Assembly (NCBI RefSeq): GCF_900289195.1
Contig: NZ_OMOH01000007.1
Coordinates: 60,001 to 92,000 of the forward strand
DNA from: Propionibacterium ruminifibrarum
GTDB lineage: Bacteria; Actinomycetota; Actinomycetes; Propionibacteriales; Propionibacteriaceae
Length of the DNA: 32,000 nt
Reading direction: 5' to 3'
A model generated the notes under the pieces. The model saw only the letters and a program-made list of their open reading frames with translations, made no database searches and was not told where the DNA came from. The position numbers and the translations under genes are program-made. Below are positions 2,154-29,146 of the stretch, in pieces. How positions within the stretch are numbered: the first letter of the stretch is position 1; every line of letters starts with the position of its first letter.

Positions 2154-3101
2154 TCAGTCGCCGGCCAGCGCCAGCACCGCCCGGGCCGTGGGCACGTCCG
2201 TCACGAGGGTCGACATGAGCCCGCCGCGCAGGCAGCCCAGGATGGCGGGGGCCTTGCTCCGGCCCCAGGCCACCGCGATGACGTTCTGAATGCCCTTCAG
2301 CCGCTCGAAGGGCACCGCGAGCAGGCGCTGGCAGAAACGGGAGTCCACGTGGTTGCCCTGCTCGTCGATGTGGTGGCCGCAGATGTGCCCCACCGAACCG
2401 GCCCTGAGCAGTTCGTCGTGCTCGGCGGCGGTGATGTAGCTGTCGAAGATGACGCCGTCGTGGCTGCGGGTGGTGGCGCCGATACCGGTGAGCATGACAT
2501 CGGCGTGCCCGGCCATGGCCAGGGTCATCGACACCGATTCCTCACGCCGCAGCGCGACGGCCACCCTGGGGGAGCGGACGACCAGCGGGGCCGGCAGCAG
2601 CCGGTAGGAGGCCTTCAGGTGCTGGGCCAGCTGCCGGCAGATCTCGGGGGAGTCCACCGAGTTGTTGTCCTGGGCGATCGTGCCGATGGACTGGACGATG
2701 GTCGCGTCCGGGCGGTGCAGCGGGGCCATCGCATGCACGACGTGGGGCACCGAGTGCCCGTTGGTGATGGCCAGCACGCAGTCGGGGCTGATGGCCTCGC
2801 CGAGCAGGCCGGCCGCCAGGCGGGAGACGTCCGAGACGTCCTGCCCGGCGTCCTCGGCCGAGACGCGCACCTGCGTGAGACCGAACCTGTCGGTGAGCGC
2901 CTGCTCCAGTTCGAAGGCGCGTTCGAGCGGGTGCCCGACGGTGAACCGGATGATGCCGAGCTCGCGGGCCTGCCGCAGCATGCGGGAGACCATCGAGCGG
3001 GAGTAGCCGATCTCGGCGGCGATGTCGGCCTGGCTGCGGTCGTCGATCCAATAGGCGCGCGCCACCTGCAGCAGCAGGGGGAGCTGGTCACGGTCAACCA
3101 T
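2154..3101 (-). CDS. SorC/DeoR-type sugar-binding transcriptional regulator
   Basis: I trimmed the 425-aa track ORF to the ATG at 3101 (MVDRDQLPLLLQVARAYW...), which has GAGG about 6 nt upstream. It has an N-terminal HTH (SQADIAAEIGYSRSMVSRMLRQARELGIIRF) followed by a SorC-type sugar-phosphate-binding domain. The upstream 110 codons look like a non-coding Arg/Pro-rich translation. Confidence 0.8.
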   Translation of the reverse strand: MVDRDQLPLLLQVARAYWIDDRSQADIAAEIGYSRSMVSRMLRQARELGIIRFTVGHPLERAFELEQALTDRFGLTQVRVSAEDAGQDVSDVSRLAAGLLGEAISPDCVLAITNGHSVPHVVHAMAPLHRPDATIVQSIGTIAQDNNSVDSPEICRQLAQHLKASYRLLPAPLVVRSPRVAVALRREESVSMTLAMAGHADVMLTGIGATTRSHDGVIFDSYITAAEHDELLRAGSVGHICGHHIDEQGNHVDSRFCQRLLAVPFERLKGIQNVIAVAWGRSKAPAILGCLRGGLMSTLVTDVPTARAVLALAGD

Positions 3102-3423
3102 GTCTGCCTCGCGGGTGTGCACGTCGGTGAGGGGAGCGAACGCCCTCACCGTCCAGTCTAGGGCGGTTCCCGGCTGGTCTGGCTCTCTCATGCCGCAGCG
3201 GGATGCACGTGTGTGAGAAACGGCGCCGCGTGCCCGCCGCTGGGCGCGAGGCGACGACCACCCCGAGCGGGCAATGCAGCCGCGGAGTGCGGGAACGGCC
3301 CCGGCCTCGTCGTGCCCGGCCGGGCGCGGCCCTGAGCGTTGCGGCACCGGGCGCCGCGTACCTGCTCGTGGGTCGGTGCGGCAATAATGATCATCGCGAT
3401 GAATCATGGCCGGAGGAATCGAC

Positions 3424-4446
3424 ATGAACACCTATGAGATCGCGTTCGACCCCGAACCCGACACCAAGGCGACGCTCCTGCGGGAGTTCCTCCTCCCGTG
3501 TCGACAGCACGGGAGATGGCACTACTACCTCGATCTGCCGATGACGATCCTCCGGGAGGCCGAGACGGTCGCGCAGGCCGTCGAGGCGGCCGAGCGCGAC
3601 TTCCCCCAGCTGGTCATCGTCTCGGCTCGGCAGATCGTGCCGTTCCCCAATCCGAGTTGGGACGAGCTCAGGAAGGTGCTCGACGAGGCCTTCGGCGACG
3701 AACCGGCGCTCACCACCAACGTCCGGGACGTCGTGCACGTCATCGGTGCCCTGGAGGCGCACTACGCCCCCGGCATGATGACGTACCAGATCGTGGAGGA
3801 CGAGGACGACGTCGTCAGCAGGTACAGCCCGTGGGTCGCGCTCGAGATCGAGGACCCGCTCCGCGGCCTGTACCGGGGCGACACATTGTTCCGGGTCGGC
3901 GATCTGCTCCCCGACCCCCACGTTCAGGCCAGCGACCTCGAGGGCTCTCTCGACCCGAAGGACGTGTGCCGCGACCTGGACACATTCGTCGCCTGGCGGG
4001 TCGTCCGCACATTGCGGGCACTGGTGGGAGCGGACGCGCGCCAACTCCACGCCGAGCTGCATGCGGACGGGTTCATCGACTGGGAGGCACGACGGGGGAA
4101 CCCCGAGTGCCACCAGTGTGGTCTGCCCACCGCCCGCCGCGACGAGGCCTGGTACTGCGACTCCTGCGGCGCCCAGCCGACGCTCGACGCGATCATCCAG
4201 ACGCTTCGCGACGACTACGACTGCACCGTCACCCACACGGCCGGCTCACACCATGCCCCCGCGCGTCTGCAGGTGACGCTGCCCGGGAGCGACGCGCTGG
4301 ACGAGATGCTGACGAACCTTCAGCGCGTCATCGGCCGCCGGATGGTCCTCCCCGCCACCGCCGACACCGCAGCACCCGTCACCGTCGGGCCGGTCACGAT
4401 CGGTGACGAGACATTCGTGGTCGTGGTCGAACCCTCGGCCACGTGA
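3424..4446 (+). CDS. hypothetical acidic cytoplasmic protein with an internal four-Cys zinc ribbon (CxxC-x12-CxxC)
   Basis: I chose the ATG at 3424 over 3406 because GGAGGA at 3412-3417 lies 6 nt upstream. Third-position G/C is strongly biased throughout. The motif is CHQCG...YCDSCG (Cys229/232/245/248). I see no TM segment or signal peptide and recognise no family. Confidence 0.7.
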   Translation: MNTYEIAFDPEPDTKATLLREFLLPCRQHGRWHYYLDLPMTILREAETVAQAVEAAERDFPQLVIVSARQIVPFPNPSWDELRKVLDEAFGDEPALTTNVRDVVHVIGALEAHYAPGMMTYQIVEDEDDVVSRYSPWVALEIEDPLRGLYRGDTLFRVGDLLPDPHVQASDLEGSLDPKDVCRDLDTFVAWRVVRTLRALVGADARQLHAELHADGFIDWEARRGNPECHQCGLPTARRDEAWYCDSCGAQPTLDAIIQTLRDDYDCTVTHTAGSHHAPARLQVTLPGSDALDEMLTNLQRVIGRRMVLPATADTAAPVTVGPVTIGDETFVVVVEPSAT

Positions 4447-4490
4447 GGACCGTTCCGCACCACCGATGCGGCTCCGAGGGCCTCGGAACA

Positions 4491-4532
4491 GACGGCCCCG
4501 CCCCGTGCGGTAGTGCGCAGGGCGGGGCCGTC
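4491..4532. terminator. hairpin between the convergent hypothetical and reductase genes
   Basis: 13-bp perfect stem, gacggccccgccc (4491-4503) / gggcggggccgtc (4520-4532), with a 16-nt loop. It lies between stops at 4446 (+) and 4540 (-). Confidence 0.55.
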
Positions 4533-4539
4533 CGCCGGG

Positions 4540-6456
4540 TCATTCCATGATGCGGATGGCGTGGTAGCCCTCGTGGATGGCGTCGAGGATCTTGCGCGGG
4601 CCGACCGCGTCACCGATGACGGCGACGTCGTCGCAGACCGCCAGGCAGGCCTCCTCCAGTTCATCGAAGGCGGTGAAACCGACGGCGTTCAGGACGGTGT
4701 CGGCCGGGATCGTCACGGTCTCGCCGTCCTTCTCGTAGCTGAGCGAGTCGGGCGCGATATCGGACACCGTGGCGCCGGTGACGACGGTCACACCCCGATC
4801 GGCCACCATCTTGCGCAGGTGCTGGTCGTTGTTGAGGCAGTGCGCAGCGGTGGCGAGGATGTCGGGGAGCATCTCCACGATGGTCACGCTGTCGGCGTCG
4901 GGTGCGATGGCGCACGCCGCCTCGGTGCCGGCCAAGCCGCCACCGATGACCACGACGTTCCGCCCGACCTCGGCCTGGTGCGTGAGGTACTTCGTGACGG
5001 GAATGGCGTTCTCGATGCCCGGGATCGGCGGCACCGCCGGAACCGATCCCGTCGCCAGGATGATCTTGTCGGCCTTGACCTCCGCCAGCGTCTCGGGTGT
5101 CGCCTCCTTGCCCAGCGTGATGGTCACGCCCAGCTTGCGGCACTGGGTCTCCATGGACTCGATGAGGCGGATGATGTCGCGCTTGAAGTCGGGGCCGCCG
5201 GCGGGCCACAGGGTACCGCCGAGTCTTTCGGACTTCTCCAGCAATTCGACGTCGAAACCCCGCTGACGCGCGGTGATGGCCGCCTCCATGCCCCCGGGGC
5301 CGCCGCCGATCACGAGCACCGACCGTTTGGTGCCGTCCGGCTTCGGCAGGGCGTAGGCCTTCTCCGCGTAGCACTGGGGGTTTACCGCGCAGTAGTAGTG
5401 CTTGCCCGAGAAACCGGCGAGCAGGCACTCGTTGCAGCCGATGCAGGGACGGATGTCCTCATACCGTCCCTGTTGGACCTTCCTCGGCCAGTACGGGTCT
5501 GCCAGCAGCTGGTGGGCGAGACCGACGTAGTCGAGGGTGCCCTCCTCGACCACCTTCCTGGCGAGGTCGGGTTCGATGAGTTTGCCGTCGCCCATCAGCG
5601 GAACGGACACGACCTCGCGGATGGCCCGCTGGACGTCGAGTTTGTGACCGGGTGCCGAGTAGACGGTCGTGATCGCCTGGAACCACTCCTCGTAGCAGCC
5701 CGCGTCGACGAGCAGCGCGTCGACACCGGCCCGCTCCAGGATCCTGGCCATCTCGACCCCCTCGTCGAGGGTGCGGAAACCCTCCACGCGCTGATGCGGG
5801 GTGAACTTGACGATGAGGGGCATGCCCGCCGGGATGTTCGAGCGCATGGCCTCGATGCACTCGAGTGTGAAGCGCATGCGGTTCTCGAGGCTGCCGCCGT
5901 ACTCGTCGGTGCGGTTGTTCCACTGGGGGGAGTGGAACTGGTCGAGCAGATATCCGCCATAGGCGTGCAGCATCACGGCGTCCGCGCCGGCATTGACGGC
6001 GAGGCTCGAGGAATAGCCGACGCGTTCGACGAGGTAGTGGATGTCGTCGACGGCGAATGGCTTGCAGATCAGGTCGGGGAACCAGAAGGAGCTCACCGAA
6101 CCGGCCGAGTAGGGCGGGGTGAAGGGATCGGTGAACTGCTGGCGGCCGAGACCGGGGGAGAGCTGAACGCAGACCTTCGCCCCCCAGTGGTGGCAGCGGT
6201 CGATGAGCATGTTGAGGCGTTCCACGTGGTGGAAGTCCGAGAGCTCCGTGCAGGGGCGGGGCTCGTACCGGGTGGAGACCACGTTGGCCCCGGTGATGAG
6301 CAGGCCGGCGCCGCCCTTCGCGCGTTCCTCGAAGTAGTCGATGCCCTCGTTGCAGTAGGCGCCGTCGGCCTCGCCGGTCGTTCCCATGGGGGACATGAAG
6401 ATCCGGTTCTTGAGTCTCATTGTGCCGATGCGCGTGCGGTCGAACAGGGTTCTCAT
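4540..6456 (-). CDS. 2-enoate reductase / 2,4-dienoyl-CoA reductase-family flavoenzyme (OYE-like FMN domain, 4Fe-4S, FAD/NAD(P) domain)
   Basis: The start is set at the ATG at 6456 (MRTLFDRTRIG...), with GGGAGGGGAG upstream. It has an OYE TIM-barrel N-domain and the Cys cluster CIGCNECLLAGFSGKHYYCAVNPQC. Two dinucleotide-binding motifs follow (VLVIGGGPGG, VVVIGGGLAG). Confidence 0.85.
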   Translation of the reverse strand: MRTLFDRTRIGTMRLKNRIFMSPMGTTGEADGAYCNEGIDYFEERAKGGAGLLITGANVVSTRYEPRPCTELSDFHHVERLNMLIDRCHHWGAKVCVQLSPGLGRQQFTDPFTPPYSAGSVSSFWFPDLICKPFAVDDIHYLVERVGYSSSLAVNAGADAVMLHAYGGYLLDQFHSPQWNNRTDEYGGSLENRMRFTLECIEAMRSNIPAGMPLIVKFTPHQRVEGFRTLDEGVEMARILERAGVDALLVDAGCYEEWFQAITTVYSAPGHKLDVQRAIREVVSVPLMGDGKLIEPDLARKVVEEGTLDYVGLAHQLLADPYWPRKVQQGRYEDIRPCIGCNECLLAGFSGKHYYCAVNPQCYAEKAYALPKPDGTKRSVLVIGGGPGGMEAAITARQRGFDVELLEKSERLGGTLWPAGGPDFKRDIIRLIESMETQCRKLGVTITLGKEATPETLAEVKADKIILATGSVPAVPPIPGIENAIPVTKYLTHQAEVGRNVVVIGGGLAGTEAACAIAPDADSVTIVEMLPDILATAAHCLNNDQHLRKMVADRGVTVVTGATVSDIAPDSLSYEKDGETVTIPADTVLNAVGFTAFDELEEACLAVCDDVAVIGDAVGPRKILDAIHEGYHAIRIME

Positions 6457-6901
6457 GGCTCTCCCCTCCCTCTGGCACGGAGCCATTCTTGTGGGCATGG
6501 TAAGACGCGGTTGTTTTCCTGCGCATCGAAAATGAACGAAGAATTCCCGCTGATTCTGTTAAACTTCTGAAGCCCCGTCTCCGCTCAATTCTTCGACGTC
6601 AGAAAAGCCTTTCCTCATCCCGGGGAATTCTTCTCGATGTATTTGCGCTGGTCGATGGCTCCTGTTGCTCAGGACTCCCGGTTGGCCCGGCACGGGATCC
6701 TCTTCCGAGGCGAGGACCGAGGCCCTGCCGGTCCGTGGTGCCGCGTGGCGGCTGATCCCTCCCCGGACTCCGCAGACAGTTCGCCATTCCAGCAGCAGCC
6801 TGCCGCCCCGCGTGGGCTGCAGGCTCGGTCCCGAGCTCATCCTGTTCCGCGGCGGCGACCCCGCCGCCCCGCGCCGGCGGTCGACCCAGGGTGAGAGCTG
6901 G

Positions 6902-6915
6902 TTCACAAATGTTCA
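6902..6915. promoter_or_regulatory. candidate operator, copy 1 of the TTCACAnATGTTCA motif
   Basis: TTCACAAATGTTCA lies in the AT-rich patch about 205 bp upstream of the lactonase ATG. It matches the copy at 6997-7010 at 13 of 14 positions. Confidence 0.35.
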
Positions 6916-6996: not shown

Positions 6997-7010
6997 TTCA
7001 CATATGTTCA
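6997..7010. promoter_or_regulatory. candidate operator, copy 2 of the TTCACAnATGTTCA motif, within a promoter-like AT-rich segment
   Basis: TTCACATATGTTCA contains the palindrome ACATATGT and lies 111 bp upstream of the ATG at 7121. Nearby TANNNT hexamers (TAATAT 6976-6981, TATGTT 7003-7008) could serve as -10 elements. Confidence 0.35.
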
Positions 7011-7120: not shown

Positions 7121-8113
7121 ATGGCCATCGTCCGTACGATCACCGGCGACGTGGCGCCCGAGAGCCTCGGTGTCGTCAATGCCCACGATCACCTCATCCG
7201 CGTCGGAGCCGGCGAGGTCTACATCGACCCCGATCACCTGCTCGACGACGTCGACAAGGCGGCCCAGGAGGCCCGCTACTTCGTCGAGGCCGCCAAGCGC
7301 TGGTCGCCCAATGCAACAGTCATCGACATGTGTCCGGCCTCCAGCGGCCGCGGCGTCCTCAAGACCCTCGAGGTCGTCGAGAAGGTCCCCGGCCTGCACG
7401 TGGTGCAGGCCACCGGCTTCCACCAGCAGAAGGTCTACCTCGAGTGGCGCCAGAGCTGGGTCAACCAGTACACCGTCAACCAGATCGCCGACCTGCTCAT
7501 CGCCGACATCGTCGAGGGCATCGACCGTTTCGACTACATGGGCCCGATCGTCGAGCGCACCACCGTCAAGGCCGGCGTCATCAAGTGGGCCACCGCCTAC
7601 GGAAAGATCACCGACTGGGAGCGCAAGTCGGGCAAGGCCGTCGCCATCGCCTCCAAGGAGACCGGGGCGCCGATCAACACCCATGTCACCGCGGGCACCT
7701 GCGGGCCGGAGCAGGCCCGTTTCCTGGTTGACGAGGGCGTCGACCCCGCCAAGATCGCCATCGGCCACATCCAGCGCAACTGGGACCCGTGGGTCAGCGA
7801 GCAGATCACCAAGCTCGGCTGCTACGTGGAGTTCGACGGCACCAACCGCATCAAGTACGTGCCCGACAACGCCCGCGTCAACCTGCTGCGGGTACTCGGC
7901 GAGAAGGGCTACGGCAAGCAGATCCTGCTCGGCACGGACTCCGGCAAGGCCTCGTACCAGAAGGTCTACGGCTCGGTCTCGGGTCTTGACTACGACCCCG
8001 CGGTCTTCGCCCCGCGCCTGCTCGACGACGAGGGCTTCGAGGAGTCCTATGTCGAGGACCTGCTGATCAACAACGCCAAGACGTTCTTCGCCTTCGACCC
8101 GCAGAGGGGCTGA
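7121..8113 (+). CDS. phosphotriesterase-homology (PTE/PHP, COG1735) amidohydrolase; probable (phospho)sugar-lactone lactonase
   Basis: 330 aa, with RBS GAGGAAGG at 7103-7110. The binuclear-metal ligand set appears intact: H22-x-H24 (NAHDHL), the Lys of GVIKWAT (carboxylated-lysine position), INTHVT, IGHIQ and LLGTDSG. Confidence 0.8.
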   Translation: MAIVRTITGDVAPESLGVVNAHDHLIRVGAGEVYIDPDHLLDDVDKAAQEARYFVEAAKRWSPNATVIDMCPASSGRGVLKTLEVVEKVPGLHVVQATGFHQQKVYLEWRQSWVNQYTVNQIADLLIADIVEGIDRFDYMGPIVERTTVKAGVIKWATAYGKITDWERKSGKAVAIASKETGAPINTHVTAGTCGPEQARFLVDEGVDPAKIAIGHIQRNWDPWVSEQITKLGCYVEFDGTNRIKYVPDNARVNLLRVLGEKGYGKQILLGTDSGKASYQKVYGSVSGLDYDPAVFAPRLLDDEGFEESYVEDLLINNAKTFFAFDPQRG

Positions 8114-8118
8114 CCGAC

Positions 8119-8781
8119 ATGGCGAACAGTCCGCGTCTACAGATCGCCCTGGACACCTTCGACCTGCCGTCCGCCCTCGGCCCGCTGCAGAAGGCTGCAG
8201 GGGACGTCGACGTCATCGAGTGCGGCACCATCCTGGTGCTGTGCGAGGGCTACCACGCGGTGCGGGCCATCCGTGCCCTGTTCCCCGACAAGAAGATCCT
8301 TGCCGACGTGCGCATCGCCGAGGCGGGCGCGAAGATCTCCCGGCTGGCGTTCGAGGCCGGCGCCGACATGGTCTCCTGCGTGGCCGGCGCCTCGCTGACG
8401 ACGATCCAGCAGGTCTGCAAGGTCGCCGCCGAGTTCGGGGGCGAGGTGCAGGTGGAGCTGGCCGACGAGTGGTACGACGTCGAACGGGCCAGGGCATGGC
8501 GCGCGGCGGGCGTGCAGCACGTCATCGTCAAACGCTCCCGCGACCGTGAGGCGGCCGGCGACCTGAGCTGGAAGCCCGACGACATCGCCCGGATCGACGA
8601 ACTCGCCGCACTCGGGTTCACGGTCACGATCACCGGCGGCATCTCCCCGAAGGACCTGCCCGTCTTCGCCGGGCACCCGGTGGGCATCGTCATTGCCGGG
8701 CGCTCCATCGTCGAGGCGGACGACCCCGCCGCGGCCGCCCACGAGCTCAAGAGCACCATCGAGCAGGTGTGGCATGAGTGA
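8119..8781 (+). CDS. UlaD/SgbH-like 3-keto-L-gulonate-6-phosphate decarboxylase-family protein (OMPDC suprafamily), divergent active site
   Basis: 220 aa, collinear with E. coli UlaD as I remember it (LQIALD, VDVIECGTIL, EVQVEL, RSRD, TVTITGG, IAGRSI). The DxKxxD motif reads DVRIAE here (nt 8305-8322). Confidence 0.8.
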   Translation: MANSPRLQIALDTFDLPSALGPLQKAAGDVDVIECGTILVLCEGYHAVRAIRALFPDKKILADVRIAEAGAKISRLAFEAGADMVSCVAGASLTTIQQVCKVAAEFGGEVQVELADEWYDVERARAWRAAGVQHVIVKRSRDREAAGDLSWKPDDIARIDELAALGFTVTITGGISPKDLPVFAGHPVGIVIAGRSIVEADDPAAAAHELKSTIEQVWHE

Positions 8782-9646
8782 ACTGGCCGACGGCATCACG
8801 CTGGGCATCTACGAGAAGGCACTCGTCGGGAACCCGCTGCAGACCAGTGACCAGTGGTGCCGCTTCCTCGACCAGGTGCCGGCAGCCGGATTCAGCTACC
8901 TGGACATCTCGATCGACGAGAGCCCCGAACGCGAGGCCAGACTCGACTGGGACCAGGACATGCGTCGCATGGTCAGGGGCGCCGTCGAATCGGTCGGCAC
9001 GATGATCGGCGGGCTGTGCCTGTCGCTGCATCGCAGGATCGGCCCCGGCTCGGCGGATCCGGCGGTGCGCGCGCACGCCCGGCGGGTCATGGCCCAGGGC
9101 CTGCGGCTCTGCCACGACCTGGGCATCGGCGTCCTGCAGGTGGCCGGCTACTACTGCTACTACGAGGACCCCAACCCCGACGCGGAGCGCCACTACGCAC
9201 AGCTGCTGGCCGACGCGGTACCGATGGCCGCCCGGCTGGGCGTCGTCATGGGCATCGAGAACGTCGACGGCACCGACGTGACCTCCGTGTGCAAGGCGAT
9301 GCAGTTCGTCCGCGAGGTCGACTCCCCGTACCTGCAGGTGTACCCCGACCTCGGCAACATCGCCGAGCAGGGCCTGGATCCCGACATCGAGCTGGCGGCC
9401 GGACGCGGCCACATGGTGGCCCTGCACGCCAAGGACGTGCGCGTCGGGGAACCCCGGCGGGTCGACATGGGCACCGGAATCGTCGACTGGGACCACAGCT
9501 TCGACCTGCTCAAGGCCCAGGGCTGGGCCGGCCGCATGATGATCGAGATGTGGAACGACGACGCTCCTGACTCCAACGAGCGCTCCAGCCGGGCACGGGA
9601 GTTCATCACCGAGCACCTCACGAAGGCCGGCATACCGGTCCTGTAA
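8774..9646 (+). CDS. L-xylulose/L-ribulose-5-phosphate 3-epimerase (UlaE/SgbU-like, xylose-isomerase-like TIM barrel)
   Basis: The start is trimmed to the ATG at 8774, an 8-nt overlap with the upstream stop. The protein is collinear with UlaE (LGIYEKAL, RLDW, LSLHRR, QVAGY..YYE, QVYPDLGN, IEMW). Confidence 0.85.
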   Translation: MSELADGITLGIYEKALVGNPLQTSDQWCRFLDQVPAAGFSYLDISIDESPEREARLDWDQDMRRMVRGAVESVGTMIGGLCLSLHRRIGPGSADPAVRAHARRVMAQGLRLCHDLGIGVLQVAGYYCYYEDPNPDAERHYAQLLADAVPMAARLGVVMGIENVDGTDVTSVCKAMQFVREVDSPYLQVYPDLGNIAEQGLDPDIELAAGRGHMVALHAKDVRVGEPRRVDMGTGIVDWDHSFDLLKAQGWAGRMMIEMWNDDAPDSNERSSRAREFITEHLTKAGIPVL

Positions 9647-9669
9647 CGGCGCCCACGGCGCCCCGTCTC

Positions 9670-9712
9670 GTGCCCCTGCGGCCGGCGACCGGAACCCGGC
9701 CGCAGGGCGCAC
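9670..9712 (+). terminator. intra-operon hairpin (attenuator or processing site) between the epimerase genes
   Basis: gtgcccctgcggccgg (9670-9685) pairs with ccggccgcagggcgcac (9696-9712). That gives 12 bp plus 4 bp with one bulged G, and a 10-nt loop. A GTTTTG run lies about 20 nt downstream. It sits in a 115-bp gap inside an otherwise tightly coupled operon. Confidence 0.45.
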
Positions 9713-9761
9713 CCCGAAACCCCAACCATCATCGTTTTGACGTTCGAGGAGGAACGTTCCC

Positions 9762-10430
9762 ATGCTGGAAGCACTCAAAGAAGAGGTGTGCGAGGGCAAC
9801 ATGGCCCTTCCGCGCCACGGCCTGGTCATCTGGACCGGAGGCAACCTGTCGGCCCGCGACCCGCAGACGGGTCTGGTCGTCATCAAGCCATCGGGCGTGC
9901 TGTACGACCACATGAGCCCCGACGACATGGTCGTCGTCGACCTCGACGGCAAGGTCGTCGAGGGCAGTCACGGCCCGTCCTCGGACACGGCCTCTCACCT
10001 GTACGTCTACCGTCACCGTGAGGACGTGCGGTCGGTGATTCACACCCACTCGACCTTCGCCACCGCGTGGGCGGCCACCGGCCAGCCCATCCCGTGCTGC
10101 CTCACCGCGGTCGCCGACGAGTTCGGCGGCCCCGTACCGTGCGGCGGCTACGCGAACATCGGCACCGAGGAGATCGGCGAGCAGATCATGGCGCACATCG
10201 GCGACTCGCCGGCCATCCTGCTCAAGCAGCACGGCGTGTTCACCATCGGGACCACCATCGAGAAGGCGGTGAAGGCCGCCGTCATGGTCGAGGACGTGGC
10301 ACGCACCATCACCTACGCCAAGATCGTCGGCCAGATCGAGGACCTCCCCCAGGAGGCCATCGATGCCAACCACGACCGTTACATGAACCGCTACGGCACC
10401 GCTGCCGCATCCACGGGGGTGAGCGAATGA
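9762..10430 (+). CDS. L-ribulose-5-phosphate 4-epimerase (AraD/UlaF/SgbE, class II aldolase fold)
   Basis: 222 aa, with RBS GAGGAGG at 9746-9752. It is collinear with E. coli AraD (IKPSG, PSSDT, IHTHS, ADEF, KQHG, C-terminal Tyr). The Zn His ligands are present. Confidence 0.88.
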   Translation: MLEALKEEVCEGNMALPRHGLVIWTGGNLSARDPQTGLVVIKPSGVLYDHMSPDDMVVVDLDGKVVEGSHGPSSDTASHLYVYRHREDVRSVIHTHSTFATAWAATGQPIPCCLTAVADEFGGPVPCGGYANIGTEEIGEQIMAHIGDSPAILLKQHGVFTIGTTIEKAVKAAVMVEDVARTITYAKIVGQIEDLPQEAIDANHDRYMNRYGTAAASTGVSE

Positions 10431-11380
10431 GCAAGTACGAGATCTCAACCATCGGCGAGGGGCAGATCCGCCTGACCTGCTTCAAGGGCGAGCGCCTCAT
10501 GAGCGCTCACCAGCTGCGCATGACCGCGGCCTGCTCCGAGGCGAACGTCGCCGGCCTGCTCAGTCAGCTCGGGCGCAGGGCCTCGTGGGCTTCGGTGATG
10601 CCCCGTGGCGAACTCGCCGACCGGGTGGTCAACGAGTTCCGCGGCGTGGGCGTGGACGTGTCCAACGTCGTCATCAAGCCCGAGGGCCGGGTCGCCCTCT
10701 ACTTCATGGAGCCCGGCGAGTACCCGATGCCCGCGAAGGTGGTCTACGACCGCGAGCACACGCCCTTCCGCTCGGTGACCAGCGCCGACCTGAACTGGGA
10801 CGACATGCTCGACACCGAACTGGTGTTCGTCACCGGCATCACCGCGGCCCTGACCCAGAACACGGCGGCTGTCATCACCGAGTTCGTCGACCGCGCCGCC
10901 GACCGGGGAGTGAAGATCGCACTCGACGTGAACTACCGCTCACTGCTGTGGGACACCGACCGGGCGCGCCAGGTGCTGGAGCCGATCGCCCGCAAGTCGA
11001 GCATCGTGTTCTGCTCCCGACGTGACGGCGAGGCCGTGTTCGGCGTGGAGGCTCCCGGGCAGGGCGCCTGCCGTGCGTTGCGCGAGCTGTTCGGGGTGCC
11101 CACCGTCGTCTCCACCGACCAGGTCGACGGCGTCTACCTGTCGGACGAGACCAGAGGCGACAAGACCTTCGAGGTCACCCGCGTGCCGGTCCTCGACCGT
11201 CCCGGTGCCGGCGACGCATTCGTCGCGGGAACCCTGCACGGCTTCCTGGCCGGCGACGTCGAACAGGGCATCAAGTACGGGCAGCGCACCAGCGCGTTCG
11301 CCCTGACCCACTACGGCGACCTGACGCGGCTGTCGCCGAGTGAACTGGACATTCCCACCACCACGGACATCGTCCGCTGA
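10427..11380 (+). CDS. PfkB-family carbohydrate kinase (2-dehydro-3-deoxygluconokinase-like)
   Basis: The start is trimmed to the ATG at 10427, an ATGA overlap with the upstream stop. It carries the PfkB signature DRPGAGDAFVAGTLHG and has a ribokinase-like N-terminus (ISTIGEGQIRL). Confidence 0.85.
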   Translation: MSKYEISTIGEGQIRLTCFKGERLMSAHQLRMTAACSEANVAGLLSQLGRRASWASVMPRGELADRVVNEFRGVGVDVSNVVIKPEGRVALYFMEPGEYPMPAKVVYDREHTPFRSVTSADLNWDDMLDTELVFVTGITAALTQNTAAVITEFVDRAADRGVKIALDVNYRSLLWDTDRARQVLEPIARKSSIVFCSRRDGEAVFGVEAPGQGACRALRELFGVPTVVSTDQVDGVYLSDETRGDKTFEVTRVPVLDRPGAGDAFVAGTLHGFLAGDVEQGIKYGQRTSAFALTHYGDLTRLSPSELDIPTTTDIVR

Positions 11381-11397
11381 GCCACCTGGCCCGGCGA

Positions 11398-11422
11398 CCG
11401 CCCCGGAGCCGTTCCGGGGCGG
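11398..11422 (+). terminator. small hairpin between the kinase and MFS genes
   Basis: ccgccccgga / tccggggcgg forms a 10-bp stem with the 5-nt loop gccgt, starting 18 nt after the kinase stop. An AT-richer leader (catttccacagaaagaactgatca) follows before the MFS ATG. Confidence 0.4.
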
Positions 11423-11453
11423 GCATGTCCATTTCCACAGAAAGAACTGATCA

Positions 11454-12809
11454 ATGAGTGCTGTGAATGCGGAGCAGACCGCTCTGCAACAGATCGACTC
11501 GAGGCCGTTGACCGGCCATCAGAAGAGCCTCATCGGGCTCGCCATCGTCGGGAACATCTCGGAGTTCTTCGACATGTTCCTCATCGGATTCGTCGTGTCC
11601 CTGCTCACCAAGCCCTGGAACCTGACCGGCACCGAGACCGGCATCATCCTCGCCTGCTCCGGCCTGGGCACGGTCGTGGGCGCCATCATGTGGGGCCGTC
11701 TGGCCGACAAGATGGGTCGCAGGCGCACCTTCTTCTGGTGCGTCCTGCTGTTCGTCACCTTCACCGTCATCTCGGTGTTCACCCCCGACCGCGGCTGGGC
11801 CATGCTCGCCGTGCTGCGCGTCGGCGTCGGCATCGGCGTCGGCGGTCTGAACATCACCTCGATCCCGTACGTCCAGGAGTTCGTGCCCGCCAAGCAGCGC
11901 GGCCTGCTGTCCGGGCTCGCCTCCGTGTTCATCCCGCTCGGCCTGTTCCTCGGCTCCCTGGCCCAGAAGGCCTTCCACGAGAACTGGCGTCTGCTCATCG
12001 GCCTCGGCGCGCTACCCGTGTTCCTGCTCATCTGGATCCGCGCCGTGCCCGAGTCCCCGCGCTTCCTGCAGACCAAGGGCCGCCTCGACGAGGCACGCGC
12101 CTCGCTGGCCTGGGCTCTGGAGATCCCCGTCGAGGAGCTGGGTTCCCTGCCCGAGGTCAAGCAGGAGGCCTCCGCCTCGTACGGGACGCTGCTGCGCAAG
12201 CACCTGAAGCCGCTGGTCATCGTGACGCTCGGCTCGTTCTGCTTCATCCTCGGCTCCTTCACCGTGCAGTCCTGGGGGCAGACCCTGCTGCAGACCGGCT
12301 ACGCCAAGAGCGCCAGCACGGTGGGTTCGCTGTTCATGGTGGTCTCGCTGGCCGACCTGCTCGGCAGGCTGGGTTCGGCCTGGCTCGCCGACCGGATCGG
12401 GCGGCGCTGGACGATGTTCCTGTACGGCCTCATCGGCGCCGCCGGATCGCTCGTCGTGGCGTTCTCGGCACACCTGCAGGCGAGCTGGGTGATCTTCTTC
12501 ATCGGCATCCTGGTGACCATGGGCTTCGGTGACGGCGCCTTCGGGATCCTCAACGCCTTCGGCGGCGAGCAGTTCCCCAACGAGGTGCGGTCCACCGGTC
12601 TGGGCCTGGGCTACGGCATCGGGTCGAGTGCCAAGATCTTCGGCCCGGCCCTCATGGGTGCGATGATCGGCGGTAACGCCGTGCAGCAGAACGTCACGCT
12701 CGACGCGGTGTTCCCCGCCTTCCTGCTGTTCGCCGGGCTGCTCCTGCTCGGCGGCGTCATCTACCTGTTCGCCAAGGAGACGAAGGGGGTCGCGCTGGAG
12801 GAGATCTGA
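11454..12809 (+). CDS. MFS transporter (metabolite/organic-acid:H+ symporter-like)
   Basis: 451 aa with about 12 hydrophobic spans. MFS motif A is present (WGRLADKMGRRR), with a second copy in the C-terminal half (LADRIGRRW). Confidence 0.85.
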   Translation: MSAVNAEQTALQQIDSRPLTGHQKSLIGLAIVGNISEFFDMFLIGFVVSLLTKPWNLTGTETGIILACSGLGTVVGAIMWGRLADKMGRRRTFFWCVLLFVTFTVISVFTPDRGWAMLAVLRVGVGIGVGGLNITSIPYVQEFVPAKQRGLLSGLASVFIPLGLFLGSLAQKAFHENWRLLIGLGALPVFLLIWIRAVPESPRFLQTKGRLDEARASLAWALEIPVEELGSLPEVKQEASASYGTLLRKHLKPLVIVTLGSFCFILGSFTVQSWGQTLLQTGYAKSASTVGSLFMVVSLADLLGRLGSAWLADRIGRRWTMFLYGLIGAAGSLVVAFSAHLQASWVIFFIGILVTMGFGDGAFGILNAFGGEQFPNEVRSTGLGLGYGIGSSAKIFGPALMGAMIGGNAVQQNVTLDAVFPAFLLFAGLLLLGGVIYLFAKETKGVALEEI

Positions 12810-12835
12810 GTCGCCACCTTGAGGTGAGCGTGTGA

Positions 12836-12878
12836 CCGGGGCCGGGCACGTCCTGTGGCGGACGTGGCCCGGCCCCGG
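12836..12878 (+). terminator. operon-end hairpin terminator
   Basis: ccggggccgggcacgtcc (12836-12853) pairs with ggacgtggcccggccccgg (12860-12878). The stem is 18 bp with one bulged G, and the loop is 6 nt. It starts 27 nt after the MFS stop. Confidence 0.65.
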
Positions 12879-12954
12879 CCCGTGTCCAGCTCGCGGCGGG
12901 GCTGGTTGGGCCGCCGAGGCGCCCCTTAGGCTAAGGGCGGGAGGGCGATCTGAC

Positions 12955-13491
12955 GTGACGACATTTCTCATCATCGGCGGCGCGGGCGTGGCACTGCTCC
13001 TGCTCGCGCTCATCGTCGGTGACGTGCTCGACGGCGTCCTCGGCTCCACCGAGGGCCTCCTCGACTCGGACGTCTTCTCCACGGCCGGGCTCGCCGGCCT
13101 GGTCGGCGGTTTTGGTTTCGGCGGCGCCATCGGCCTGGGCGTCAGCGGCGTCACGATGATCGGCGTCCTGTGCGGTCTGGTGCTCGGCGTCTCGCTGGCG
13201 TACGGGGCGACGAAGCTCACCCGGGCGCTGCGCCACCAGGGCAGCTCCAACACCGTCCGCACGGACTCGCTGGTCGGCTCGGAGGCGAGCGTCATCACCG
13301 CCATCCCCGCCAACGGCTACGGCCAGATCCGGCTGTCCCACAACGGGCACCTGGTCACCATCTCGGCGCGCTGCGACACCGCCATCGAGGCGGGCTCGCG
13401 GGTGTGGATCAGCGAGGTCCTCACGCCGACCGCCGTCGGCGTGCACCCGATCGACGCCCTGCCCGCCGGTGACGCGGAGCAGGAACGTTAG
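12955..13491 (+). CDS. NfeD-family membrane protein (flotillin-associated, C-terminal OB-fold)
   Basis: The start is set at the GTG at 12955, with RBS GGGAGGG at 12940-12946. The upstream part of the track ORF runs through the terminator hairpin. It has a Gly-rich TM N-half and a soluble tail (GSEASVITAIPANGYGQIRL...GSRVWISEV). It lies directly upstream of flotillin. Confidence 0.75.
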   Translation: MTTFLIIGGAGVALLLLALIVGDVLDGVLGSTEGLLDSDVFSTAGLAGLVGGFGFGGAIGLGVSGVTMIGVLCGLVLGVSLAYGATKLTRALRHQGSSNTVRTDSLVGSEASVITAIPANGYGQIRLSHNGHLVTISARCDTAIEAGSRVWISEVLTPTAVGVHPIDALPAGDAEQER

Positions 13492-13578
13492 GGAGGGTTC
13501 CGGGCGCCAACCCCTGGCGTGCCGGGCGCGGCGTCCAGTAGCGTGACCCGGTCCACCACCCACCAGTGAAGGAGAACA

Positions 13579-15072
13579 GTGCAAGGCATCGTCACAGCAA
13601 TCATCGGGGTGATCGTCCTCCTCGTGCTCATCGGCCTGCTCATCGCGAGCCGCTACCGCGTGGCCGGTCCGAACGAGGCGTTCATCGTCACCGGACGCCG
13701 CGGCAAGGAGGTCATCAATCCCGAGACCGGCATCGTGTCCACCGACCTGTCGGGGCAGAAGGTCGTCATGGGCGGGGGCGTCTTCGTCATCCCGTTCATC
13801 CAGCGGCTGTACATCATGGACCTGTCCAGCCGGCGCATCATGGTTCAGATCCGCGGCGCCGTCTCGGGCCAGGGCATCAAGTTGAACCTCGACGGCGTCG
13901 CCATCGTGAAGGTGGGCGGCAACGAGGACTCCATCCGCGCTGCCGCGCAGCGCTTCCTCACCCAGCAGGAGCAGATCGAGTCCTTCACCCAGGAGACCCT
14001 CGCCGGCTCGCTGCGTTCCATCGTCGGCGGCCTGACCGTTGAGCAGATCATCCGCGACCGCGCGGCCTTCGCCCAGCGCGTCGCCGACGAGTCCGAGACC
14101 TCCCTCACCGGTCAGGGCCTGGTGCTGGACACCTTCCAGATCCAGGACATCACCGACGACGGCACCTACCTGAGCGACCTGGGACGCCCCGAGGCGGCGA
14201 AGGTGCAGCAGCAGGCCGCGGTCGCCGAGGCCTCCTCGCGGCAGGAGGCGGAGCAGGCCCGCATCATCGCCCAGCAGGAGATCGCGATCTCCGAGCGGGC
14301 GCTCATGCTGAAGCAGGCCGAGATCAAGGCCGAGACCGACGCGGCTGCAGCGCAGGCGGCGGCGGCCGGCCCGCTGGCCCAGGCCGACCGCGACCAGGCC
14401 ATCCTCGCCGAGCAGGAGAAGGTGGCCGTGCGTCAGGCGGCCCTGAAGGACCGCCAGCTCGACACCGAGATCCGCAAGCCCGCCGACGCCGAGCGGTACC
14501 GCATGGAGACCGAGGCCGAGGGCCGCAAGAACTCCGAGATCTTCGAGGCGGAGGCCGCCAAGGCCGCCGCCATCGCCTCCGCCGAGGCCGACGCCGAGAA
14601 GTCGCGCCTGATCGGTGTCGGTGACAAGTCCCGCCGGACGGCCCTCGCCGAGGCGGCCGCCATCGAGGGCGCCAAGCAGGGCGAGGCCGAGAAGTCCCGC
14701 CGTGTGGCCGAGGCAGAGGCGGTCCGCGCCGAGGGCGAGGCGCAGGCGGCCGCCATCCTGGCCACCGGTCAGGCCGAGGCCGAGGCCATGCACAAGAAGG
14801 CCGATGCGTACGCCCGGTACAACGACGCCGCCATCGTCGAGATGCTCGTCAACGCCCTGCCCCAGGTGGCCGAGAAGATCGCCGCCCCGATGGGCAACAT
14901 CGACAAGTACACGGTCATCAGCGCCGACGGCGCCGGCTCCGGCCCCCGGCAGGTCACCGGCACCGTCGTCGAGACCATGGAGATGATCAAGAACGCCACC
15001 GGCGTCGATCTGCAGGAACTCGCCTCGAACTACGCCCGCAAGCGGGTCGAGGGTGACCAGCTGGCCCAGTGA
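13579..15072 (+). CDS. flotillin-like SPFH/band-7 protein
   Basis: 497 aa, with a GTG start and RBS GAAGGAG at 13568-13574. It has an N-terminal membrane anchor and an SPFH domain. A long Ala/Glu/Gln-rich coiled coil (EA repeats) and a flotillin-type C-terminus follow. Confidence 0.88.
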   Translation: MQGIVTAIIGVIVLLVLIGLLIASRYRVAGPNEAFIVTGRRGKEVINPETGIVSTDLSGQKVVMGGGVFVIPFIQRLYIMDLSSRRIMVQIRGAVSGQGIKLNLDGVAIVKVGGNEDSIRAAAQRFLTQQEQIESFTQETLAGSLRSIVGGLTVEQIIRDRAAFAQRVADESETSLTGQGLVLDTFQIQDITDDGTYLSDLGRPEAAKVQQQAAVAEASSRQEAEQARIIAQQEIAISERALMLKQAEIKAETDAAAAQAAAAGPLAQADRDQAILAEQEKVAVRQAALKDRQLDTEIRKPADAERYRMETEAEGRKNSEIFEAEAAKAAAIASAEADAEKSRLIGVGDKSRRTALAEAAAIEGAKQGEAEKSRRVAEAEAVRAEGEAQAAAILATGQAEAEAMHKKADAYARYNDAAIVEMLVNALPQVAEKIAAPMGNIDKYTVISADGAGSGPRQVTGTVVETMEMIKNATGVDLQELASNYARKRVEGDQLAQ

Positions 15073-29141: not shown

Positions 29142-29146
29142 GGATC

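What the first reader, a model, noticed from the sequence alone, without database searches (positions are those of the whole stretch)
7121..12809. Ula-type sugar-acid operon with no PTS and no UlaG: a PTE-family lactonase, PfkB kinase and MFS permease feed UlaD/E/F homologues
Six co-directional genes are tightly coupled: a 5-nt gap, an 8-nt overlap, then an ATGA overlap. They encode a COG1735 phosphotriesterase-homology amidohydrolase with an intact binuclear-metal ligand set, and homologues of UlaD, UlaE and UlaF/AraD. A KdgK-like PfkB kinase and an MFS symporter complete the operon.

In the established E. coli pathway, L-ascorbate enters through the UlaABC PTS as the 6-phosphate. The MBL-fold lactonase UlaG opens the ring, and UlaD/E/F convert the product to D-xylulose-5-P. 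In the related yiaK-S route, an FGGY kinase (LyxK) makes 3-keto-L-gulonate-6-P.

Here the PTS, UlaG and LyxK roles are all filled by unrelated folds. This implies a transporter-plus-kinase route: lactone or acid uptake, ring opening, phosphorylation in either order, then decarboxylation and two epimerisations. From memory, some COG1735 proteins were shown to hydrolyse phosphorylated sugar lactones, which fits. The substrate (L-ascorbate, or another C6 keto- or aldono-lactone) and the order of steps are unknown.
Basis: partly seen in the sequence, partly recalled or inferred. Interest (0 to 1): 0.72.

Follow-up and report, generated by a model that had tools for sequence, protein, structure and literature searches.

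The report
PTS-free vitamin C operon in Actinobacteria
This is a conserved actinobacterial operon that most likely breaks down vitamin C using a membrane permease plus an ATP-dependent sugar kinase in place of the usual phosphotransferase uptake system; the kinase step has not been described before and nothing here has been tested at the bench.

Summary
The six genes are real and sit at the stated coordinates. They are a PTE-family lactonase, UlaD-, UlaE- and UlaF-like enzymes, a KdgK-like PfkB kinase and an MFS permease.

- Two junctions are gaps of 115 and 73 nt, each holding a GC-rich hairpin.
- A SorC-family regulator lies at 2154-3191.
- Two operator palindromes lie upstream of the lactonase gene.

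All six genes recur together in 65 of 80 actinobacterial species, usually with the regulator divergent. No PTS, UlaG or dehydrogenase recurs beside them.

Related lactonases in Mycoplasma, a Lentisphaerota genome and a probable Chloroflexota genome sit in operons of lactonase, ascorbate-type PTS and UlaDEF. The last of these shares this regulator type and operator. PfkB+MFS therefore looks like a swap for the PTS.

The proposed route is L-ascorbate uptake, 6-phosphorylation, ring opening, decarboxylation to L-xylulose-5-P, then two epimerisations. Lactonase-for-UlaG was already proposed for mycoplasmas, and the operator motif was predicted in Bifidobacterium bifidum. The kinase-plus-permease version appears undescribed.

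Verdict: a new variant of a known kind, with substrate and step order inferred only.

The parts
2154..3191 (-). SorC-family (SgaR-like) transcriptional regulator, 345 aa. The ORF is open up to 3431.
   Evidence: Pfam finds a Sugar-bind domain (PF04198) plus an HTH. The 345-aa start matches gene calls on related contigs. A homologue lies immediately divergent from the lactonase gene in 58 of the 65 complete loci. In this window it is displaced about 3.9 kb by two inserted genes.
6902..6915 (.). Distal operator-like palindrome TTCACAAATGTTCA
   Evidence: It has 3 mismatches to TGAACATATGTTCA. Only 2 matches occur in the 32-kb window, both here, against 0.06 expected. The motif is enriched more than 100-fold upstream of the lactonase gene across loci. 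The same motif was predicted for B. bifidum SgaR (PMC4746261 supplement).
6997..7010 (.). Proximal operator-like palindrome TTCACATATGTTCA, 124 nt upstream of the lactonase ATG and 95 bp from the distal site
   Evidence: Many other loci also carry a pair of sites, typically 73 to about 118 bp apart, with a proximal site near -100.
7121..8113 (+). PTE-family (COG1735) binuclear-metal lactonase, predicted phospho-lactone hydrolase
   Evidence: PF02126 at 153 bits. NF045706 'phospho-furanose lactonase' scores 240 bits, below its cutoff of 630. The best PDB matches are 3msr/3ovg at 206 bits and 3pnz at 162 bits. Metal ligands and the cationic phosphate-site residues are conserved.
8119..8781 (+). 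UlaD-like 3-keto-L-gulonate-6-P decarboxylase homologue, D-x-R-x-x-E variant
   Evidence: It scores 185 bits against E. coli UlaD 1kv8. NF009832 scores 232.5, below its cutoff of 250. E112, R139, T169 and R192 (E. coli numbering) are kept, while K64 is R, D67 is E and H136 is K.
8774..9646 (+). UlaE-like L-xylulose-5-P / L-ribulose-5-P 3-epimerase
   Evidence: NF009688 scores 339.8 bits, above its cutoff of 317. PF01261 matches.
9674..9707 (+). GC-rich hairpin in the 115-nt UlaE-UlaF gap (12-bp perfect stem)
   Evidence: The fold is -35.2 kcal/mol with z -4.3. No T-tail follows, so its role as an attenuator, processing site or stabiliser is unknown.
9762..10430 (+). UlaF/AraD-like L-ribulose-5-P 4-epimerase
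   Evidence: NF005123 scores 343 bits, above its cutoff of 251. PF00596 matches.
10427..11380 (+). KdgK-like PfkB kinase, predicted to phosphorylate the imported substrate (L-ascorbate at O6)
   Evidence: PF00294 at 107 bits. The best NCBIfam model, a KDG/KDGal kinase, scores 209, below its cutoff of 440. The best PDB match is 2afb, a KDG kinase. The gene is present in every locus with room for it and is always adjacent to the MFS gene where an MFS gene is present.
11398..11422 (+). GC-rich hairpin in the 73-nt PfkB-MFS gap
   Evidence: The fold is -25.4 kcal/mol with z -2.2.
11454..12809 (+). MFS permease (sugar-porter / aromatic-acid:H+ symporter-like)
   Evidence: PF07690 at 178 bits and PF00083 at 160 bits. 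No NCBIfam cutoff is met.
12836..12878 (+). Large GC-rich hairpin 27 nt after the MFS stop codon, the likely end of the transcription unit
   Evidence: The fold is -45.2 kcal/mol with z -3.9.

Best explanation
This is a PTS-independent version of the L-ascorbate (vitamin C) fermentation pathway.

Inferred steps:
1. The MFS permease imports L-ascorbate.
2. The KdgK-like PfkB kinase uses ATP to make L-ascorbate-6-phosphate.
3. The PTE-family binuclear-metal lactonase opens the ring to 3-keto-L-gulonate-6-P.
4. The UlaD-like enzyme decarboxylates it to L-xylulose-5-P.
5. The UlaE-like and UlaF-like epimerases convert that to L-ribulose-5-P and then D-xylulose-5-P for the pentose-phosphate pathway.

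A SorC-family (SgaR-like) repressor binds two TGAACATATGTTCA-type palindromes upstream of the lactonase gene. It is probably released by a phosphorylated intermediate such as L-xylulose-5-P.

What is shown: the genes, their family assignments, active-site conservation, synteny, the operator motif, and the PTS-versus-kinase/permease alternation between lineages. What is inferred: the substrate, the order of kinase and lactonase, and the effector.
For: 1. Family assignments. The UlaE-like and UlaF-like proteins pass NCBIfam cutoffs for the two epimerases. The UlaD-like protein is 46% identical to E. coli KGPDC and keeps E112, R139, T169 and R192. From memory, those residues distinguish KGPDC from hexulose-phosphate synthase.

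2. Conservation. All six genes lie together in 65 of 80 actinobacterial species. No dehydrogenase, PTS or UlaG recurs beside them. With no redox enzyme, the substrate must already be at the oxidation level of ascorbate or 3-keto-gulonate.

3. PTS-containing sister operons. M. synoviae has RpiR | PTE - EIIC(ascorbate-type) - IIB - IIA - UlaD - UlaE - UlaF. The same holds in a Lentisphaerota genome and in L092. In these operons the lactonase can only receive a PTS-phosphorylated lactone.

4. L092 links the two versions. Its lactonase is 51% identical to the window's. It has the same D-R-E UlaD variant, a SorC regulator, and the same palindrome at -113 and -229. The only difference is PTS versus PfkB+MFS.

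5. PfkB and MFS move as a pair. Where they form a separate transcription unit they carry their own pair of operator-like sites. That puts them in the same regulon.

6. Phosphate site. The residues that, from memory, bind phosphate in Lmo2620 are K242, K244, R275 and Y278. Those in MS53_0025 are K217, K244, Y245, R275 and Y278. They align with R219, R243, K245, Y246, K276 and Y279 here. These are invariant in Actinobacteria and conserved in all PTS-linked homologues.

7. The same operator motif was predicted for SorC-family SgaR in B. bifidum. There it controls an L-xylulose kinase/epimerase operon (PMC4746261 supplement). This fits L-xylulose-5-P as the shared intermediate.
Against: - No biochemical or growth data exist for any member.
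- The only activities I found reported for the closest solved lactonase are on 5-phospho-pentono-1,4-lactones (PMC10971088). I could not establish whether L-ascorbate-6-P was ever tested, because the primary papers are not held.
- The kinase's nearest characterised relatives phosphorylate open-chain 2-keto-3-deoxy acids, not lactones.
- The UlaD-like protein replaces two active-site residues of E. coli KGPDC (K64 to R, H136 to K) and falls just below the NCBIfam cutoff.
- The roles assigned to the phosphate-binding residues come from memory.
- The MFS protein matches no acid-sugar transporter family above its cutoff.
- Two hairpin-containing gaps leave co-transcription unproven.
Confidence: 0.55

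Rival explanations
1. Same substrate, opposite order. The lactonase hydrolyses free L-ascorbate to 3-keto-L-gulonate. The KdgK-like kinase then phosphorylates the open-chain keto-acid at C6, doing the job of LyxK in the E. coli yiaK-S route.
For: The kinase's closest characterised families are KDG/KDGal kinases and IolC, which act on open-chain keto-acid sugars.
Against: The lactonase keeps the full cationic and tyrosine cluster that aligns with the phosphate site of Lmo2620 and MS53_0025. Its 51%-identical homologue in L092 works behind a PTS, and no kinase gene lies in or beside that operon, so it must take a phosphorylated lactone.
Confidence: 0.15
2. Same chemistry, different natural substrate. 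This would be another enediol- or keto-lactone, or a keto-acid, that yields a beta-keto acid phosphate and then L-xylulose-5-P or a close analogue. Examples are an ascorbate analogue such as D-erythroascorbate, or a plant- or host-derived hexulosonate lactone.
For: The characterised lactonase relatives prefer 5-phospho C5 lactones (PMC10971088). The UlaD-like protein is a distinct D-R-E subfamily below the curated cutoff. Clostridial homologues of the lactonase sit in quite different acid-sugar clusters with DUF1537 kinase and PdxA. The substrate range of the family is therefore broad.
Against: UlaE and UlaF pass the epimerase cutoffs, which points to L-xylulose-5-P. The D-R-E UlaD variant also occurs behind an ascorbate-type EIIC PTS in L092. 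No redox enzyme is conserved in the locus.
Confidence: 0.17
3. The PfkB kinase and MFS permease form an L-xylulose (or pentitol-derived ketopentose) uptake and kinase module feeding UlaE/UlaF. This would match the SgaR regulon of B. bifidum. The lactonase and UlaD-like enzyme would serve a separate or accessory branch.
For: The same regulator family and operator control gatC-lyxK-sgaU-sgaE in B. bifidum, with L-xylulose as the predicted effector.
Against: The lactonase and UlaD would then have no source of phosphorylated substrate. Yet both accompany PfkB-MFS in every locus with room for it. In the other phyla an ascorbate-type PTS occupies that role. PfkB is unrelated to the FGGY L-xylulose kinase.
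Confidence: 0.08
4. This is a chance juxtaposition or decayed remnant with no joint function.
For: Two internal gaps with strong hairpins could separate transcription units. The regulator is displaced in this genome.
Against: The locus is conserved with intact ORFs and high GC3 in 65 of 80 species across several actinobacterial orders, including the reduced genome of Tropheryma whipplei. The operator pair is retained.
Confidence: 0.01

Closest known systems
Mollicute ula operon with a PTE-family lactonase (M. synoviae MS53_0025 locus; M. hyopneumoniae MHP7448_0377)
   Same: A homologous COG1735 lactonase (37% identity, 206 bits to 3msr) is the first gene of an operon that ends in UlaD-, UlaE- and UlaF-like genes. 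There is no UlaG. The lactonase was proposed from gene context to replace UlaG (PMC4866288, PMC11092275).
   Different: The mollicute operon has a complete ascorbate-type PTS (EIIC-GAT, IIB, IIA), an RpiR regulator and a canonical D-K-D UlaD. The window has PfkB kinase plus MFS, a SorC regulator and a D-R-E UlaD.
E. coli ulaG / ulaABCDEF regulon (anaerobic L-ascorbate fermentation)
   Same: The predicted chemistry is the same from L-ascorbate-6-P to D-xylulose-5-P. UlaD, UlaE and UlaF homologues are present.
   Different: There is no UlaABC PTS, no MBL-fold UlaG and no DeoR-type UlaR. Uptake, phosphorylation and ring opening are done by unrelated folds: MFS, PfkB and a TIM-barrel amidohydrolase.
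E. coli yiaK-S (sgb) route
   Same: It uses a permease-type transporter and a soluble ATP-dependent kinase to make 3-keto-L-gulonate-6-P. The SgbH, SgbU and SgbE steps are equivalent to UlaD, UlaE and UlaF.
   Different: The E. coli route (from memory) uses an FGGY kinase (LyxK), the reductase YiaK, a TRAP-type transporter and no lactonase. None of these is present here. A lactonase is always present instead.
SgaR (SorC family) regulon predicted in Bifidobacterium bifidum (Khoroshkin et al. 2016, PMC4746261)
   Same: It has the same regulator family and essentially the same palindromic site (CGATGAACACATGTTCATCG against TGAACATATGTTCA here). UlaE- and UlaF-type epimerases are among its targets.
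   Different: The B. bifidum regulon is gatC-lyxK-sgaU-sgaE, assigned to L-xylulose. It has no lactonase, no UlaD-like decarboxylase and no PfkB or MFS gene.
Phospho-furanose lactonases Lmo2620/Bh0225 and MS53_0025/MAG_6390 (COG1735)
   Same: The fold, the binuclear-metal ligands and the residues aligning with the phosphate site are the same.
   Different: The window protein is 37% identical to MS53_0025 and is below the NCBIfam equivalog cutoff (240 against 630). The published substrates are 5-phospho C5 lactones. The substrate expected here is a 6-phospho C6 enediol lactone.

Membership tests
E. coli-type Ula system | UlaABC ascorbate-specific PTS (EIIC-GAT, IIB, IIA) | tested here: not met
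   No PTS domain is found in any gene of the window. None recurs in the flanks of the 80 related loci. The rest of the genome was not searchable.
E. coli-type Ula system | UlaG, an MBL-fold L-ascorbate-6-P lactonase | tested here: not met
   None is in the window or among the recurrent neighbours. A PTE-fold lactonase is present instead.
E. coli-type Ula system | UlaD (KGPDC) with its catalytic set: D11, E33, D62, K64, D67, E112, H136, R139, T169, R192 | tested here: inconclusive
   The protein is 46% identical to E. coli UlaD. D11, E33, D62, E112, R139, T169 and R192 are kept, but K64 is R, D67 is E and H136 is K. NF009832 scores 232.5, below its cutoff of 250. The same variant follows an ascorbate-type PTS in L092.
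E. coli-type Ula system | UlaE and UlaF epimerases | tested here: met
   NF009688 scores 339.8, above its cutoff of 317. NF005123 scores 343, above its cutoff of 251.
Mollicute-type PTE-ula operon | COG1735 lactonase encoded with UlaD, UlaE and UlaF, and no UlaG | tested here: met
Mollicute-type PTE-ula operon | Ascorbate-type PTS genes inside the operon | tested here: not met
   The PTS is present in L087, L091 and L092. It is absent here and in the 80 actinobacterial loci, which carry PfkB+MFS.
Phospho-furanose lactonase (NF045706 / EC 3.1.1.104-type) | Binuclear-metal ligands (HxH, carboxylated Lys, His, His, Asp) | tested here: met
   H22, H24, K155, H188, H216 and D273 are conserved.
Phospho-furanose lactonase (NF045706 / EC 3.1.1.104-type) | Phosphate-binding Lys/Arg/Tyr cluster | tested here: met
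   R219, R243, K245, Y246, K276 and Y279 align with the Lmo2620 and MS53_0025 positions. The role of those residues is recalled from the published structures and was not re-read here.
Phospho-furanose lactonase (NF045706 / EC 3.1.1.104-type) | Score above the curated equivalog cutoff | tested here: not met
   The score is 240.4 bits against a cutoff of 630. The protein is a related clade, not an equivalog.
Phospho-furanose lactonase (NF045706 / EC 3.1.1.104-type) | Hydrolysis of a phosphorylated sugar lactone | not testable with these tools
   This needs an enzyme assay.
KdgK (2-dehydro-3-deoxygluconokinase) | Score above a curated KDG-kinase cutoff | tested here: not met
   NF041332 scores 209 against a cutoff of 440, NF040938 scores 104 against 400, and NF052444 scores 52 against 400. 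The fold is PfkB with a GAGD motif, but the protein is not an equivalog of any named kinase.
yiaK-S (sgb) system | FGGY kinase LyxK, reductase YiaK and a TRAP-type transporter | tested here: not met
   None of these families is in the window or recurs in the related loci.
SgaR (SorC-family) regulon | SorC-family regulator plus a TGAACA-N2-TGTTCA palindrome upstream of the target operon | tested here: met
   The regulator is at 2154-3191. Two sites lie at 6902-6915 and 6997-7010. The motif is found in 53 of 78 loci. The published site is in PMC4746261. Binding itself is untested.

The most novel reading that the evidence does not exclude
The KdgK-like PfkB enzyme is an ATP:L-ascorbate 6-phosphotransferase, an activity with no described enzyme. 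Together with an MFS permease it would functionally replace the ascorbate PTS. That would give host-associated Actinobacteria a previously unrecognised route for consuming vitamin C. The carriers include oral and ruminal Actinomyces, Cutibacterium avidum, C. modestum and C. namnetense, bee- and primate-gut Bifidobacterium, Corynebacterium, and the reduced-genome pathogen Tropheryma whipplei.
Probability: 0.45. Interest if true: 0.7.

Novelty: new variant of a known kind. Interest (0 to 1): 0.58.

Why it matters
Bacterial vitamin C fermentation is textbook-tied to the UlaABC PTS and UlaG. Genome annotation and pathway tools such as the KEGG and MetaCyc ascorbate modules (as I recall them) would therefore score these Actinobacteria as unable to use ascorbate.

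If the prediction holds, it would:
- add a new enzyme activity, a soluble L-ascorbate 6-kinase in the PfkB family;
- confirm a second lactonase fold for L-ascorbate-6-P;
- reassign hundreds of 'phosphotriesterase-related protein' and 'sugar kinase' annotations;
- identify ascorbate consumers on skin, in the mouth, in the rumen and in insect guts.

Retention of the operon in the 0.9-Mb genome of Tropheryma whipplei would suggest that host ascorbate is a carbon source for that pathogen. The kinase-for-PTS swap on an otherwise constant operon is also a clean example of modular non-orthologous displacement.

Tried and rejected
- **Primary papers.** I tried to read the Korczynska 2014 and Xiang 2012 papers by DOI and PMC id. 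Neither is held. Residue roles and the question of whether L-ascorbate-6-P was tested therefore rest on memory and on secondary citations.
- **Literature searches.** Searches for a characterised actinobacterial pathway, 'ascorbate kinase', or PTE plus ascorbate found nothing relevant. The last search found the B. bifidum SgaR prediction.
- **Riboswitch or other RNA.** The Rfam scan of the whole window found no match.
- **Promoters and terminators.** The sigma-70 promoter scan found nothing, and no canonical terminator lies inside the operon. This is uninformative for a high-GC actinobacterium.
- **The neighbouring OYE/FadH-like flavoenzyme (4540-6498) and the 346-aa ORF (3406-4446).** I considered them as pathway members and rejected them. 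They flank the locus only in the Propionibacterium australiense lineage.
- **Other recurrent neighbours.** RadA, DisA, transketolase, FecCD and similar genes are lineage synteny, not pathway genes.
- **The D-R-E UlaD motif as a marker of lactonase-linked operons.** I rejected this because the M. synoviae and Lentisphaerota UlaD proteins are canonical.
- **Structure prediction and fold search.** I did not use them. The sequence matches to solved structures were already unambiguous, and the tools give no ligand contacts.

Full report
**Observation**

The window is high-GC actinobacterial DNA. Its lactonase is 98% identical to that of Propionibacterium australiense.

ORF listing, third-position GC and independent gene calls on six contigs carrying the identical lactonase all give the same six co-directional genes:
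- 7121-8113
- 8119-8781
- 8774-9646
- 9762-10430
- 10427-11380
- 11454-12809

The 5-nt gap, 8-nt overlap and ATGA overlap are real. Each holds a perfect GC-rich stem-loop, and a third lies just after the MFS stop codon. Co-transcription is therefore likely but not shown.

**The proteins**

*Lactonase.* Gene 1 is a PTE-family protein (PF02126). Its best solved relatives are 3msr/3ovg (206 bits) and 3pnz (162 bits). To my knowledge these are the phospho-sugar lactonases MS53_0025 of Mycoplasma synoviae and Lmo2620 of Listeria. The nearest NCBIfam model is 'phospho-furanose lactonase', but at 240 bits against a cutoff of 630. The metal ligands H22, H24, K155, H188, H216 and D273 are intact.

*UlaD-like.* Gene 2 is 46% identical to E. 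coli 3-keto-L-gulonate-6-P decarboxylase. It keeps E112, R139 and T169. It has Arg for K64, Glu for D67 and Lys for H136. The first two changes are invariant in 78 actinobacterial homologues. It falls just below the curated cutoff (232.5 against 250). A search of 1.84 billion representative proteins shows that D-R-[E/R/K] proteins form a sizeable third group. The other two groups are canonical KGPDC (D-K-D ... E-H-R-T) and hexulose-phosphate synthases.

*Epimerases.* Genes 3 and 4 pass the curated cutoffs for L-ribulose-5-P 3-epimerase and 4-epimerase.

*Kinase.* Gene 5 is a PfkB kinase. It is nearest to KDG kinases but far below every curated cutoff.

*Permease.* Gene 6 is an MFS permease with no specific family assignment.

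**Conservation**

A scan of one genome per species found 182 species with a relative of the lactonase. The best 80 are all Actinobacteria: Propionibacteriaceae, Cutibacterium avidum/modestum/namnetense, Actinomycetaceae, Bifidobacterium of bees and primates, Corynebacterium, Microbacterium, Rothia and Austwickia.
- All six genes lie together in 65 of the 80. Most exceptions are truncated contigs.
- PfkB is present wherever there is room, and it is always next to the MFS gene where one is present. The pair relocates as a unit.
- One Amycolatopsis locus has ABC-transporter permease genes and no MFS gene.
- Clustering all flanking ORFs showed no further recurrent partner. There is no PTS, no UlaG and no dehydrogenase.
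- A contig labelled Tropheryma whipplei, with GC of 46-50%, carries the six genes without the regulator.

**Regulation**

In 58 of the 65 complete loci a SorC-family regulator is divergent from the lactonase gene. In this window its orthologue lies at 2154-3191. It is separated from the operon by a 346-aa ORF without family matches and an OYE/FadH-like flavoenzyme. These two genes occur here only in this lineage.

A 14-bp palindrome, TGAACATATGTTCA, occurs upstream of the lactonase gene in 53 of 78 loci, often as two copies 73-118 bp apart. That is 83 sites in 23.4 kb, against 41 in 1.43 Mb elsewhere.

The window has exactly two matches, at 6902-6915 and 6997-7010. They are 95 bp apart, 219 and 124 nt upstream of the ATG, and 0.06 matches would be expected by chance.

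In the four loci where PfkB-MFS is a separate unit, it has its own pair of such sites.

The motif is not new. Khoroshkin et al. predicted CGATGAACACATGTTCATCG for SorC-family SgaR of B. bifidum. There it controls gatC-lyxK-sgaU-sgaE, with L-xylulose as effector (PMC4746261 supplement).

**Comparison with PTS-containing relatives**

The M. synoviae lactonase gene heads an operon of PTE - EIIC-GAT - IIB - IIA - UlaD - UlaE - UlaF. A Lentisphaerota genome has the same operon, followed by HPr and enzyme I.

Locus L092 has GC of 43%. Its organism is probably Chloroflexota, judged from the names in the cluster of a similarly scoring homologue. It has SorC | PTE - EIIC - IIB - IIA - UlaD - UlaE - EIIC - UlaF. 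Its lactonase is 51% identical to the window's. Its UlaD carries the D-R-E variant. The same palindrome sits at -113 and -229.

So one backbone of regulator, operator, lactonase and UlaDEF exists in two versions that differ only in PTS versus PfkB+MFS.

**Mechanism**

A PTS delivers its substrate already phosphorylated. In the PTS versions the lactonase must therefore act on a phosphorylated lactone.

From memory, phosphate is bound by K242, K244, R275 and Y278 in Lmo2620. In MS53_0025 it is bound by K217, K244, Y245, R275 and Y278. These residues align with R219, R243, K245, Y246, K276 and Y279 here. All are invariant in Actinobacteria and conserved in the PTS-linked proteins.

The simplest reading has three parts:
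- The actinobacterial lactonase takes the same phosphorylated lactone.
- The kinase therefore acts first, on the imported lactone.
- With no redox enzyme in the locus, and L-xylulose-5-P epimerases downstream, the substrate is L-ascorbate.

I put this at about 0.55. The substrate, the step order and the effector are all inferences.

**Rivals**

- *Lactonase-first order (0.15).* The kinase would act on 3-keto-L-gulonate. This fits the kinase's KDG-kinase ancestry but not the lactonase's phosphate site.
- *A different lactone (0.17).* This fits the C5 preference reported for the Mycoplasma enzymes (PMC10971088) and the atypical UlaD. Clostridial homologues of the lactonase also sit in DUF1537-kinase/PdxA acid-sugar clusters.
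- *L-xylulose module (0.08).* This echoes B. bifidum SgaR but leaves the lactonase and UlaD without a substrate.

**Novelty**

Replacement of UlaG by the PTE-family protein was already proposed from gene context for mycoplasmas (PMC4866288, PMC11092275). UlaG itself is nearly absent from Actinobacteria (PMC3219644).

I found no paper describing the PfkB+MFS version, an 'ascorbate kinase', or this actinobacterial locus. The library lacks most subscription journals, so absence is not proof.

I rate it a new variant of a known kind. It is a good and easily testable enzyme-discovery target rather than a new kind of system.

Noticed in passing
window 8119-8781 (residues R65, E68, K137 of the UlaD-like protein): The OMPDC-suprafamily D-x-K-x-x-D motif reads D-x-R-x-x-E, and E. 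coli H136 is Lys. R and E are invariant in 78 actinobacterial homologues, while K is found in 64 and H in 14. A search of representative proteins shows a whole D-R-[E/R/K] group beside canonical KGPDC and HPS. The catalytic meaning is unknown.
   Followed up: partly
window 3406-6498: A 346-aa ORF with high GC3 and no Pfam match, plus a 652-aa OYE/2,4-dienoyl-CoA-reductase-like Fe-S flavoenzyme (nearest models BaiCD and bilirubin reductase, all below cutoff), are inserted between the SorC regulator and its operators. This occurs only in the P. australiense lineage. On related contigs the hypothetical gene is called as only 105 aa.
   Followed up: partly
window 9674-9707, 11398-11422, 12836-12878: Three perfect GC-rich stem-loops without T-tails lie in the two internal gaps and after the last gene (-35, -25 and -45 kcal/mol). 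They could be factor-independent terminators of the actinobacterial type, attenuators or mRNA stabilisers. I did not check whether they are conserved in relatives.
   Followed up: partly
L090:1224-7005 (contig labelled Tropheryma whipplei): The reduced-genome pathogen carries lactonase-UlaD-UlaE-UlaF-PfkB-MFS with no SorC regulator or operator nearby. The contig GC of 46-50% fits the organism.
   Followed up: partly
L088:1038-10078 and L089:5140-14391 (Clostridia/Blautia): Homologues of the lactonase (two paralogues in L088) sit with a DUF1537 four-carbon acid-sugar kinase, PdxA-like dehydrogenase, Fe-ADH, 2-hydroxyacid dehydrogenase, DHDPS-like aldolase and a TRAP or MFS transporter under a sigma-54 activator. 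This is a different, apparently uncharacterised lactone/acid-sugar pathway.
   Followed up: no
L091:8001-15398 (Lentisphaerota): The PTE-PTS-UlaDEF operon is followed directly by the HPr and enzyme I genes. The general PTS components appear to be dedicated to this one operon.
   Followed up: no
protein P0203: A 430-aa PTE plus EIIC-GAT fusion protein is attributed to the nematode Parascaris equorum. It is 64% identical to the Mycoplasma lactonase, so it is probably bacterial contamination or a merged gene call.
   Followed up: no
L015, L017, L018, L026-L034 (Actinomyces loci): The in-operon UlaF gene is missing. A more distant UlaF/AraD-like gene (48-53% identity) sits convergently just after the MFS gene. 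Seven Actinomyces loci also have transketolase within 10 kb.
   Followed up: no
window 12832-15072: A membrane protein without a Pfam match (possibly NfeD-like) followed by a flotillin/SPFH protein lies directly downstream of the operon. The pair is conserved in the closest relatives.
   Followed up: no
window 25773-31813: Menaquinone genes (MenD-like TPP enzyme, isochorismate synthase, AMP-binding MenE-like) lie in a stretch of 75-78% GC. The 1122-aa ORF holding the MenD domains overlaps the MalQ gene and is probably over-extended at its 5' end.
   Followed up: no
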